The notes below the pieces were generated by a model that saw nothing but the letters and a program-made list of their open reading frames with translations, was not told the DNA's origin and did no database searches. DNA of 64,000 nucleotides, from the NCBI RefSeq assembly GCF_009914755.1, contig NC_060935.1. The stretch is one strand, 5' to 3'. Source of the DNA: the human T2T-CHM13v2.0 reference genome, Homo sapiens. This document shows, piece by piece, positions 53,426 through 57,325 of this stretch (position 1 is its first letter; every line of letters begins with the position of its first letter). Position numbers and translations under genes: made by a program.

Positions 53426-56400
53426 GGCTGGACGTTGGTAACTGATGCTTGTTATCCCAGCACTTTGGGAGGCCAAGGGAGGCAGATCGCTTGAGCTGAG
53501 GAGTTTGAGAGCAGCCGGGGCAACATGGTGAAACCACATCTCTACAAAAAGTACAAAAAAAAAAATTAGCTGGGTGTGATGGCACATGTCTGTAGTTCCA
53601 GCTACTCAAGAGGCTGAGGTGGGAGGATCACCTGAGCCCAGGAGGTTGAGGCTGCAGTGACCGGTGATTGCACCACTGCATTCCAGCCTGGGTGACAGAA
53701 CAAGACCCTGTCTCAAAAATTTAAAATAAAATGCGTTGTTTTTATACTGGGAAATTTTATAACTTTTTGCACATATCAAGATTAAGCTGAAGGTAAACAA
53801 GACTATTTGACAAGAATAATTTGTATTTTTATAAAGATATATTGATATTGTATTTTGATAAGAATAACTGCATTTTCCGAAATCATAATAAATTTTAAAA
53901 TTTTAAAATTTATTATTATTAAAAAAATTTTTTTTTTTTAAAGACAGGGTCTCACAATTTTGTCCAGGCTGACCTTGAACTGCTGGGCTCAAGCAGTTCT
54001 CCCACCTTGGCCTCCCAAAGTGCTGGGATTACAGGCGTGAGCCACCGTGCCTGGGCGTGAAATCACTTAATTTTATATAGGGCAGGATTATTCTGATTTG
54101 TATCACAGTAACTTAATGTAGGAACATTGACCTTTGGATGTAACGGAGAGGAATATTAAAATTCAACCTTGGGGCCAGGCGCAGTGGCTCATGCTTGGAA
54201 TCCCAGCACTTTGGGATCCGAGGTAGGCGGATCACCTGAGGTCAGGAGTTTGAGACCAGCTTGGCCAACATGGCAAAACTCCCATCTCTACTAAAAATAC
54301 AAAAATTAGCCAAGCATGGTTGCATGCGCCTGTAATTCCAGCTACTCGGGAGGCTGAGGCATGAGAATCGCTTGAACCTGGGAGGCAGAGGTTGCAGTGA
54401 GCTGAGATCATGCCACTGCACTCCAGCCTGTGTGACAGTGAGACCCTGTCTCAAAAAAAAAAAAAAAAAAATTCACTCTTGACCAGGCATGGTGGCTCAC
54501 ATTTGTAATCCCAACACTTTGAGAGGCTAAGACAGGAGAATTGCTTGAGGCCAGTAGTTCAAGATCAGCCTGGGGAATGTCACGAGACCCCCAAAAATAA
54601 AAATAAACATTTTTATTATTTATTATTTTTTTTTTGAGGCCGAGTCTCACATTGTTGCCCGGGATATAGAGTGCGGTGGCACGATCTCGGTTCACTGCAA
54701 CCTCTGCCTCCCCGGTTCAAGCAATTCTCCTGCCTCAGCCTCCTGAGTAGCTGAGACTACAGGCCACCATGCACTGCTAATTTTTGTATTTTTTTTGTTA
54801 GAGACGGGGTTTCATCATGTTGGCCAGGCTGGTCTTGAACTCCTGACCTCAAGTGATCGACCTGCCTCGGTCTCCCAAAGTGCTGGGATTACAGGCATGA
54901 GCCACCACACCGGGCCGAAAGGAACTATTTTTGTATTAGTAATCATGTTTATTTGATCATATGGAAGTATAGGAAGACAGGTGGTTAGAATTTAGCCTTC
55001 TTATTAGCCTAATGTGATTTGCTAAATAGGAATTTAGTGAGAGGGATGGGATGTAAGAATTCCAGTAACATTATTTATTTATAATTTTATTTTCTTAATA
55101 TTTCTAGAATTTTATTTTATTATTATTATTATTATTATTATTTTTGAGACAGGTTCTCGCTCTGTTGCCCAGGCTTTAGTGCAGTGGCACGATCTTGGCT
55201 CACTGCAGCCTCCGCCTCCCAGGTTCAAGCAATTCTCCCACCTCAGCCTCTCAAATAGCTGGGATTACAGGGACACACCACCACACCCGGCTAATTTTTG
55301 TATTTTTAGTAGAGATGGGGTTTCACCATGTTGGCCAGGCTTGTCTCGAACCCCTGACCTCAGGTGATCCACCTGTCTCAGCCTCCCAAAGTGCTGGAAT
55401 TACAGGTGTGAGCCACTGTACCCGGCCAATTTCCAGAATTTTAATTTAAAAATAACAGGATTGGCCACACACGTTGGCTCATGCCTGTAATTCCAGCACT
55501 TTGGGAGGCTGAGGTGGGAGTATCCCTTGAGCCTAGGAGTTCAAGACCAGCCTGGTTAACATAGCAAGACCTCATCTCTACAAAATTTGGAAACTTAGCC
55601 AGGCATGGTGGCATGCACCTGTAGTCCTGGTTACTCAAGAGACCGAGGTGGGAGGATTGCTTGAGCCTGGGAGGTTGAGGCTGCAGTGAGCTGTGATCAC
55701 TGTAGCCTAGCCAACATTGCAAGAATCTGTCTCAAAAAAATAATAAAATGATAAAAAATGTAAATAGAAGCCGAGCATGGTGGCTCATGCCTGTAATCCT
55801 AGCACTTGGGGAGGCCGAAGGCAGACAGATTGCTTGAGCTCAGGAGTTTGATACCAGCCTGGGCAACATGGTGAAACCCTGTCTCTATAGAAAAATTAGC
55901 CAGGCATGATGGCGTCCCCCATGTAGTCCCAGCTACTCAGGGGGTTGAGGCAGGAGGATTGCTTGAGCCTAGTAATTTGAGACCAGTCTGGGCAACATAA
56001 TAAGACCTTGTTTCTACTTTTGAAAAAAAAAACAAAAAACAAAAACTAAGCAGCAACAAGAAAAATAACATGATTGTAGCTATAAATGTAAAACTTGACC
56101 TGGTCAATACTTTACCATTATTAAGGTTGTGAAATGTCTCACTATTCCACATGAAGCCTTTTTTGTGGCATCCTGAATTTATTCACTCTGTCCCTAGTTT
56201 TAATGATAAAAATGTGACATCATTTTATAAAAATTAGAAAAATATATTAACATTAAAGGGCGGAGAAGAACCTATGAGAGGGCTCAGAAATAGAAAATTA
56301 TTAAGAGAGCAGAGGCCACAATACTAATATCTTACGGGGACCTAAAACATGAAAGATTGAATGAGCTATTACCAAGCTCACATTCTAAAAGCAGGTAAGG

Positions 56401-57325
56401 TTTTTGTGACCTTGCTATGTAAGTAATAACGTTTATTTTGTTGATAGAATAAGATAGAAGACTTCATGTGGAATAGTCACACATTTCAAAATCTTAATAA
56501 TGGAAAAGTATCGACCAGGTCAAGTTTTACATTTATAGCTAGAGGCCTGGCACAGTTGCTCACACCTCTAATCCCAGCACTTCAGGAGGCCAAGGTGGGC
56601 GTATCACTTGAGCCCAAGAGTTCGAGACCACTCGGGAGGCTGAGGTACAAGAATCACTTGAACCCGGGAGGCAGAAGTTGCAGTGAGCTGAGATGGTGCC
56701 ACTACACTCCAGCCTGGGTGACAGAATGAGACCCTATTTCAAAACAAACAAACAAACAAAAACATAGCTACAATCATGTTATTTTTGTTGTTGCTGTTTC
56801 TATTGGTAGAATTCTTATTCCCCCCATAGTATATCCCTTCATTTATCTAGGTTTTTTCCAGTATATTTCACTAGTGCTTTTTTTAAAAACCAACTTTATT
56901 GAGGTAAAATTGATGTTCAGTAAAGTGGACCCCCATTTTAAGTGTGCATTTCAGTGAGTTTTGACAAACATATTTATTCATGTAAGTAACCACCATAGTC
57001 AAAATATAGAAAATAAGCCAGGTGCGGTAGCTCACGCCTACAATCCCAGCACTCTGGGAGGCCAAGGCAGGCAGATCACTTGAGGTCAGGAGTTCAAAAC
57101 CAGCCTGGCCAACATGGTGAAACCCCGCCTCTACTAAAAATACAAAAATTAGCTGGGTGTGGTGGTGCACACCCGTGATCCCAGCTACCTGGGAAGTTGA
57201 GGTGGGAGAATCGCTTGAAACCAGGAGGCAGAGGTTGCAGTGAGCCATGATCACACCACTGCACTCCAGCCTGGGTGACACAGTGAGACCCTGTCTCAAA
57301 AAAAAAAAAAAAAAAAAAAAAAAAA
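53426..57325. mobile_element. Alu-dense zone downstream of exon 6 (about ten full or partial Alus, both orientations)
   Basis: Canonical Alu text, e.g. 53426-53720 (+), 54173-54471 (+), 54630-54916 (-), 55140-55427 (-), 55462-55740 (+), 56544-56762 (+), 57017-57325 (+). Confidence 0.92.
56051..56796. repeat. Non-Alu inverted repeat: left arm 56051-56160; right arm 56458-56541 plus 56765-56796, split by an Alu
   Basis: 56077-56160 vs the reverse complement of 56458-56541 gives 77/84 identity with no gaps. The outer ~30 bp match resumes after the Alu. Confidence 0.95.

What the first reader, a model, noticed from the sequence alone, without database searches (positions are those of the whole stretch)
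56051..56796. Old but highly identical non-Alu inverted repeat: candidate maintained RNA stem in the intron before the JmjC core exons
Seen: 56077-56160 is the reverse complement of 56458-56541 with 7 mismatches and no gaps in 84 bp (92%). Complementarity continues for ~30 bp (cagcaacaa.aaaaataacatgattgtagcta) beyond an Alu inserted in the right arm (56544-56762, short atagcta duplication), so the repeat predates that Alu. The Alu looks old (J-like positions gagccc..gagttc and gagaccct, many substitutions, an internal deletion). Inference: two neutrally drifting arms that old should differ far more than 8%, so identity seems maintained by selection for pre-mRNA pairing or by intra-hairpin gene conversion. 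The uninterrupted 84-bp duplex closes a ~297-nt loop, and its A:C mismatches are favoured ADAR contexts. I do not recognise the arms as a known transposon TIR.
Basis: partly seen in the sequence, partly recalled or inferred. Interest (0 to 1): 0.8.

Follow-up and report, generated by a model that had tools for sequence, protein, structure and literature searches.

The report
Single-copy inverted duplication split by Alu
A 113-base piece of a KDM2A intron was once copied backwards about 300 bases away and later split by an Alu; it can fold into a long RNA hairpin, but it looks like an ordinary neutral relic and not a maintained structure.

Summary
The left arm, 56048-56160, is the reverse complement of 56458-56541 plus 56771-56799. 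That is 113 bp with 9 mismatches and no gaps (92%). An Alu (56542-56763, target-site duplication ATAGCTA) interrupts the right arm, so the repeat predates it.

The arms and the 297-nt spacer occur only at this locus in the 3.1-Gb assembly. A control query from the flanking old repeat returned 84 candidates at 72-89% identity. A recognisable transposon family is therefore excluded. The best reading is a local inverted duplication made by a replication template switch or fold-back.

The "too identical for its age" argument does not hold up. The Alu mixes J-like and S-like positions and is of intermediate divergence, not a clear AluJ. The arms are about 31% G+C and nearly free of CpG, so they change more slowly than the G+C-rich Alu. 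After correcting for composition, 10.7 to 19.2 arm differences are expected against 9 observed (P = 0.38 to 0.06). The nine differences show no bias towards keeping sense-strand pairing.

The hairpin would fold strongly (-272 kcal/mol, z = -15.7) and is a plausible ADAR substrate. The same intron holds longer inverted Alu pairs. No other genomes could be searched, so conservation and covariation remain untested.

The parts
56048..56160 (+). Left arm of the inverted repeat (113 bp, 33% G+C, no CpG)
   Evidence: Unique to this locus in the genome.
56161..56457 (+). Spacer or loop, 297 nt, single-copy
   Evidence: distance between arms; the genome search finds only itself, 1 candidate.
56458..56541 (+). 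Right arm, inner 84 bp; 7 mismatches to 56077-56160. Its last 7 bases, ATAGCTA (56535-56541), are the 5' copy of the Alu target-site duplication.
56542..56763 (+). Alu inserted into the right arm, + orientation. It mixes J-like and S-like positions, lacks consensus positions 87-171 and has an A-rich tail.
   Evidence: alignment with 80 other Alus; weak Metazoa_SRP hit at 56545-56742 and hits to Alu-derived miRNA families.
56764..56770 (+). 3' copy of the Alu target-site duplication, ATAGCTA
56771..56799 (+). Right arm, outer 29 bp; 2 mismatches to 56048-56076

Best explanation
This is a single-copy local inverted duplication. A stretch of about 113 bp of unique intronic DNA was copied in reverse-complement orientation about 300 bp away. 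The likely cause is one replication error in which the nascent strand folded back or switched template (the four-point template-switch model) in an anthropoid ancestor. This step is inferred. An Alu of intermediate age, mixing J-like and S-like positions, later inserted into the right arm. This step is shown. Since then the arms have drifted apart at roughly the neutral rate expected for A+T-rich DNA with almost no CpG. This step is consistent with the counts but not proven. In KDM2A pre-mRNA the arms would pair into a long imperfect duplex that ADAR could edit, as a by-product and not a selected function. This step is inferred.
For: The arms and spacer match nothing else in the 3.1-Gb assembly. 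The DNA searches return only the locus itself. Three pattern searches with up to 3 mismatches gave no other copy of the arm. In one search (30-mer) only the two arms matched. In one search (24-mer) only the left arm plus 8 other places matched, against 3 for the reversed control. In one search (23-mer) the two arms plus 24 other places matched, against 2 for the control. Of all these extra places, 31 showed alignments of no more than 45 nt and one showed 76 nt at 70%. The same DNA search on the neighbouring old repeat (56800-57005) gave 84 candidates; 40 were scored, at 72-89% identity. Family members that diverged would therefore have been seen.

The inner ends of the arms are sharp and the 113-bp alignment has no gaps. 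This fits one copying event. The Alu splits one arm only, and a target-site duplication flanks it.

The divergence fits neutrality. Rates from 63 S-type Alus are 3.8% at A/T sites (237/6180) and 6.7% at non-CpG G/C sites (507/7589). These give 10.7 expected arm differences against 9 observed, P = 0.375.

Template switches that create inverted repeats and RNA hairpins are documented in human and primate genomes. I read passages of PMC5453318 and PMC10710096, and the abstract of PMC8794818.
Against: Using the inserted Alu's own divergence from the S consensus (3/63 A/T sites, 13/90 G/C sites), 17.6 differences are expected. That gives P = 0.019 as a point estimate, or 0.057 once the uncertainty of the rates is included. 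A mild deficit of divergence therefore cannot be ruled out.

The template-switch events in the passages I read are mostly tens of bases long. A 113-bp copy across a 297-bp spacer is larger. No ancestral state lacking one arm could be examined. The ratio of 4 transitions to 5 transversions is unusual for neutral change, though n = 9.
Confidence: 0.68

Rival explanations
1. The origin is the same local inverted duplication, but the repeat is older than its 8% divergence suggests. The arms have been partly homogenised by neutral arm-to-arm gene conversion or by repeated template switching between the arms.
For: Against the inserted Alu's own divergence, the arms show 9 differences where 12.8-19.2 are expected, predictive P = 0.29-0.057. 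The Alu's divergence is reached or exceeded by only 3 of 63 S-type copies, or 10 of 63 after discounting 3 J-like sites. Template switching that homogenises inverted-repeat arms is described in yeast (PMC8604942, abstract and passages).
Against: The deficit is not significant once base composition and the uncertain Alu subfamily are allowed for. The mismatches are spread evenly, 7 in 84 and 2 in 29, with no clear converted tract. The longest perfect run is 45 bp; my hand estimate gives about 0.08 for the chance of a run that long. Arms of 84 plus 29 bp are short for mammalian gene conversion (established knowledge, not tested here).
Confidence: 0.15
2. It is a relic of a non-autonomous DNA transposon (MITE) with long terminal inverted repeats, from a family too small or too old to detect.
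For: The architecture fits: long inverted termini around a short non-coding core, about 530 bp in total without the Alu. The outer ends read CAG...CTG. From memory, many hAT and Tigger elements have such ends.
Against: No second copy exists anywhere in the genome at the roughly 72-89% identity that the search demonstrably detects (control). No convincing target-site duplication is visible. The left flank is the tail of another Alu, and the repeat does not continue beyond that Alu (231, 412, 199 and 56 of 500 shuffles score as well). A family old enough to have vanished would not keep 92% identical termini.
Confidence: 0.07
3. It is a selected RNA structure. Pairing of the arms in KDM2A pre-mRNA is kept by purifying selection, for example as an ADAR substrate or to shape splicing ahead of the JmjC exons.
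For: The predicted hairpin is very stable: MFE -272.4 kcal/mol against -174.1 for shuffles, z = -15.7. It lies on the transcribed strand of a 7.7-kb intron, one exon before the first JmjC match, which is weak (exon 61549-61641, PF02373, E = 0.0075, below the cut-off). There is a possible mild deficit of divergence.
Against: Any recent inverted duplication folds this well, so the fold is no evidence of selection. The 9 differences give 2 G:U wobbles, 2 A:C mismatches and 5 transversion mismatches on the sense strand. That shows no excess of pair-preserving changes and no asymmetry between the strands. An Alu was tolerated inside one arm. No Rfam family matches the arms. The same 6.1 kb holds 253 inverted pairs, including Alu pairs of up to 330 nt at 80%. 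Literature searches on KDM2A found nothing about this hairpin.
Confidence: 0.05

Closest known systems
Template-switch mutations that create inverted repeats and hairpins (four-point model; PMC5453318, PMC8794818, PMC10710096)
   Same: A nearby stretch is copied in reverse complement on the same chromosome. The product is a ready-made RNA hairpin, it lies in an intron, and the source sequence is not a transposon.
   Different: The arm (113 bp) and spacer (297 bp) are much larger than the events of tens of bases in the passages I read. The event is old, at 8% arm divergence, and cannot be polarised here because no outgroup sequence was available.
Miniature inverted-repeat transposable elements of the human genome, for example MADE1, the source of mir-548 (PMC1784062, seen in a search listing only)
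   Same: Long inverted termini, a short non-coding core and the capacity to form a hairpin RNA.
   Different: There are no other copies in the genome, no clear target-site duplication and no match to a miRNA family.
Inverted Alu pairs in introns, the main class of human ADAR substrates
   Same: An intronic, imperfect, long intramolecular duplex on the pre-mRNA. Promiscuous editing is expected.
   Different: The arms are unique sequence, shorter (84 plus 29 bp against about 300 bp) and more complementary (92% against 72-89% for the pairs listed).

Membership tests
MITE / non-autonomous DNA transposon | Multiple dispersed copies in the genome | tested here: not met
   Searches find only the locus itself. 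The pattern searches find no homologous copy (extensions checked). The control found 84 candidates for the flanking old repeat.
MITE / non-autonomous DNA transposon | Terminal inverted repeats | tested here: met
   113-bp arms, 92% complementary.
MITE / non-autonomous DNA transposon | Target-site duplication flanking the whole element | tested here: inconclusive
   The left flank is the A-rich tail of an Alu (about 55768-56045). No matching direct repeat is visible, and the arm does not continue beyond that Alu.
MITE / non-autonomous DNA transposon | Match to a curated family consensus (Dfam/Repbase) | not testable with these tools
   No repeat library was available.
Template-switch / fold-back inverted duplication | Reverse-complement copy of adjacent unique sequence, made in one gapless block | tested here: met
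   113 bp, no gaps, sharp ends; unique sequence.
Template-switch / fold-back inverted duplication | Ancestral or outgroup state with only one arm | not testable with these tools
   No primate or other mammalian genomes are held; the output states that the assembly has no relatives here.
Alu SINE (the insert at 56542-56763) | Alignment to the Alu consensus, A-rich tail and flanking target-site duplication | tested here: met
   aligned with 80 Alus; tail; ATAGCTA on both sides; weak Metazoa_SRP hit, E = 0.0025.
   J-like at 2 of the 7 scorable diagnostic positions (70, 275). S-like at 63, 194, 197, 204 and 219. Two further positions are deleted. The subfamily consensuses were built here from 63 S-like and 7 J-like copies, not taken from a curated library.
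Selected RNA structure | Arm differences biased towards pair-preserving changes on the transcribed strand | tested here: not met
   2 G:U, 2 A:C and 5 transversion mismatches.
Selected RNA structure | Covariation or constraint across species; direct evidence of a duplex or of editing | not testable with these tools
   No orthologues and no RNA data. Literature searches found nothing on this hairpin.
pre-miRNA or other Rfam family | Match of the arms to a covariance model | tested here: not met
   hits with E < 0.01 lie only in Alu sequence. Those overlapping the arms or loop have E of 0.1 or higher and fall far below the gathering scores.

The most novel reading that the evidence does not exclude
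The hairpin is kept more uniform than neutral drift allows, by selection on pairing or by recurrent intra-hairpin conversion. It acts in KDM2A pre-mRNA as a long non-Alu duplex. It might recruit ADAR, or loop out the spacer, which carries a strong 5' splice-site-like motif at 56392, and so influence splicing ahead of the JmjC exons.
Probability: 0.06. Interest if true: 0.5.

Novelty: new member of a known kind. Interest (0 to 1): 0.17.

Why it matters
If the neutral reading is right, this is one more example of how replication errors create long hairpins in introns from unique DNA, which is raw material for new small RNAs or editing substrates. It has no special consequence for KDM2A. It also shows that comparing an A+T-rich repeat with a G+C-rich Alu overstates how far the repeat should have diverged. 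It would matter more only if primate alignments showed concerted evolution or covariation of the arms.

Tried and rejected

I re-ran shorter patterns with 3 mismatches.

3. One search gave 26 matches against 2 for the reversed control, which looked like a repeat family. Searches show that about a third of the extra hits share one flanking sequence. From memory I take this to be a THE1/MST-type LTR. These hits match the arm at 20 of 23 bases by chance. Extensions are no longer than 45 nt, except one of 76 nt at 70% (L031), and that locus has no inverted partner. I rejected homology.

4. I tested whether the repeat continues beyond the upstream Alus. Local alignments of the right outer flank against four upstream segments score no better than shuffles: 231, 412, 199 and 56 of 500 shuffles score as well. 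A seven-base match next to the upstream Alu is therefore not evidence.

5. Rfam found nothing on the arms.

6. Literature on KDM2A with editing or inverted repeats was checked, with passages of PMC12562983 and PMC5355282 read. They mention only gene-level or coding-site editing. One search was too loosely worded to be informative.

7. A proper Alu subfamily assignment was not possible without a curated library. The J-like consensus rests on 7 copies.

Full report
**Observation**

The repeat finder reports arms 56077-56160 and 56458-56541: 84 nt, 92% complementary, 297 nt apart. It also reports a second pair, 56048-56083 and 56764-56799: 36 nt, 94%. The two pairs are one repeat interrupted by an Alu. 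The heptamer ATAGCTA lies at 56535-56541 and again at 56764-56770. Between the two copies lies an Alu in + orientation with an A-rich tail (56542-56763).

With the Alu and one heptamer removed in a script, the left arm 56048-56160 aligns to the reverse complement of 56458-56541 plus 56771-56799. The alignment covers 113 bp with 9 mismatches and no gaps. My first slice was off by two bases; I re-indexed it from the printed flanks, and one search used the corrected slice. A 21-mer from the arm occurs only in the two arms in the window, against none in 100 shuffles.

**Is it a transposon?**

No repeat library was available, so I used the window's own 3.1-Gb assembly as the library.
- A DNA search with arms plus spacer, with the spacer alone and with the left arm alone at E up to 10 returned only this locus.
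- Pattern searches are not subject to the tool's skipping of common words. A 30-mer with up to 3 mismatches found only the two arms.
- A 24-mer found the left arm plus 8 other places, against 3 for the reversed control. None extended beyond 34 nt.
- A 23-mer found 24 extra places against 2 for the control. About a third of these share one flanking sequence, which from memory I take to be a THE1/MST-type LTR. They resemble the arm over no more than 45 nt, apart from one 76-nt stretch at 70% that has no inverted partner. I treat this as a chance motif match.
- As a positive control I ran the same DNA search on the right flank, 56800-57005. From about 56876 this flank is an old interspersed repeat. 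The search returned 84 candidates; 40 were scored, at 72-89% identity.

The search therefore detects family members that diverged, and it finds none for this element. A transposon family young enough to keep 92% identical termini would have been seen.

**Extent of the repeat**

The left arm ends exactly where the A-rich tail of an upstream Alu (about 55768-56045) ends. I tested whether the repeat continues beyond that Alu or beyond the Alus further upstream. Local alignments of the right outer flank against four upstream segments scored no better than shuffles: 231, 412, 199 and 56 of 500 shuffles scored as well. I see no convincing target-site duplication around the whole repeat.

**Age of the Alu**

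I collected 80 Alus of at least 250 aligned bases from the window and from unrelated loci fetched earlier, aligned them and took the majority consensus. Positions where a second base reaches 15% split the copies into 63 S-like and 7 J-like copies; 10 intermediate copies were left out of both groups.

The inserted Alu is a mosaic:
- It is J-like at consensus positions 70 and 275.
- It is S-like at 63, 194, 197, 204 and 219.
- None of the 63 S-like copies carries both J-like states.
- It lacks consensus positions 87-171.

Its divergence is intermediate. At non-CpG sites it differs from the S consensus at 17 of 161 sites, or 14 of 161 after discounting three J-like sites. S-like copies on the same sites average 6.2% (sd 2.4%). 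Three of 63 reach the Alu's raw value and 10 of 63 reach the discounted value. The 7 J-like copies average 12.2% from their own consensus. The Alu is therefore old for an S element or intermediate between J and S. It is not a clear AluJ.

**Is 8% too little divergence?**

The arms are 33% and 30% G+C and hold a single CpG between them. The Alu's non-CpG sites are about 59% G/C. In the 63 S-like copies, A/T sites changed at 3.8% (237/6180) and non-CpG G/C sites at 6.7% (507/7589). The table applies such class rates twice, once per arm, to the arms' composition. Nine differences are observed.

| Rate source | Expected differences | P(9 or fewer) |
|---|---|---|
| Average S-type Alu | 10.7 | 0.375 |
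| This Alu against the S consensus (3/63 A/T, 13/90 G/C), point estimate | 17.6 | 0.019 |
| Same, with rate uncertainty included | 19.2 | 0.057 |
| Only changes private against both the S and J consensus | 15.2 | 0.171 |
| Same, minus position 71 | 12.8 | 0.294 |

At most there is a mild, non-significant deficit of divergence.

**Signature of the differences**

On the sense strand the nine differences give two G:U wobbles (56050, 56126), two A:C mismatches (56106, 56157) and five transversion mismatches. Selection for pairing in the KDM2A transcript would favour wobble-preserving changes on that strand. The 2:2 split shows no such bias. One difference is a CpG in the right arm against CA in the left (56106). 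The differences are spread evenly, 7 in 84 and 2 in 29.

**Folding and context**

The region 56040-56810 folds with the outer 29-bp and inner 84-bp helices stacked and the Alu as a side branch. The MFE is -272.4 kcal/mol against -174.1 ± 6.3 for shuffles, z = -15.7. Any recent inverted duplication folds like this, so the fold says nothing about selection.

Within 53400-59500 the repeat finder lists 253 inverted pairs. They include Alu pairs of up to 330 nt at 80% and 124 nt at 87%. The intron already offers many long duplexes. This one stands out only for being non-Alu and 92% complementary.

Rfam matches with E below 0.01 lie only in Alu sequence (mir-3135, mir-1285, Metazoa_SRP). Nothing credible hits the arms or spacer. 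The exon at 61549-61641 gives a weak match to the start of the JmjC profile (PF02373, E = 0.0075, below the cut-off).

**Mechanism**

The best-supported origin is one copying event that wrote the reverse complement of adjacent unique DNA. The evidence is a gapless block with sharp ends, no family and no target-site duplication.

Template switching during replication is documented to create inverted repeats and ready-made RNA hairpins in human and primate genomes, often in introns. I read passages of PMC5453318 and PMC10710096, and the abstract of PMC8794818. The events described in those passages are mostly tens of bases long, so this one is large for the class. Template switching between existing arms can also homogenise them (PMC8604942, abstract and passages). 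That is the neutral route to any mild excess of identity.

The order of events is shown: duplication first, Alu insertion second. The mechanism and the dating to an anthropoid ancestor are inferred.

**Literature**

- KDM2A with A-to-I and intron: 9 papers held all three terms and 8 were listed. I read passages of two, which mention gene-level or coding-site editing only.
- KDM2A with inverted repeat: 7 papers; I saw only titles and abstract openings, and none concerns this hairpin.
- Editing databases and the supplements of editing papers were not examined and might list sites here.

**Limits**

No other eukaryotic genome, repeat library or RNA data set could be queried. Presence in other species, concerted evolution, covariation, editing and duplex formation in cells all remain untested.

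**Verdict**

The feature is real and was correctly described. It is a single-copy inverted duplication older than an intermediate-age Alu. The evidence offered for maintenance does not survive correction for base composition and Alu subfamily. It is an ordinary member of a known kind, and interest is low.

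Noticed in passing
window 56186-56400: Inside the hairpin loop there is a strong 5' splice-site-like motif (CAG|GTAAGG at 56392-56400). About 200 nt upstream there is a pyrimidine-rich stretch ending in AG (about 56186-56197). Together they could outline a pseudoexon enclosed by the stem. The supplied table annotates no exon here.
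   Followed up: partly
window 56876-57005: An old interspersed repeat lies just right of the inverted repeat and is cut off by the Alu that starts near 57010. A genome search gave 84 candidates, 40 of them scored at 72-89% identity. The family was not named because no repeat library was available.
   Followed up: partly
window 56542-56763: The inserted Alu combines J-like states (positions 70, 275) with S-like states (194, 197, 204, 219). None of the 63 S-like copies sampled has this combination. It also lacks consensus positions 87-171. It could be an intermediate subfamily or a recombinant or converted copy.
   Followed up: partly
window 53400-59500: The intron is packed with Alus in both orientations. 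There are 253 inverted pairs, the longest 330 nt at 80% (55113-55442 with 57001-57330). The inserted Alu itself can pair with the minus-strand Alu at 55135-55250 (116 nt, 78%), which could compete with the hairpin.
   Followed up: no
window 55768-56047: The A-rich tail of the upstream Alu ends exactly at the outer end of the left arm. The true outer boundary of the duplication could therefore be hidden. No continuation was found upstream.
   Followed up: yes
L018, L019, L022, L024, L028, L030-L032 (about 1470-1560): Copies of one LTR-like repeat share a 20/23 match with arm positions 56131-56153. From memory I take the repeat to be THE1/MST. This inflated the pattern count; similarity does not extend further.
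   Followed up: yes
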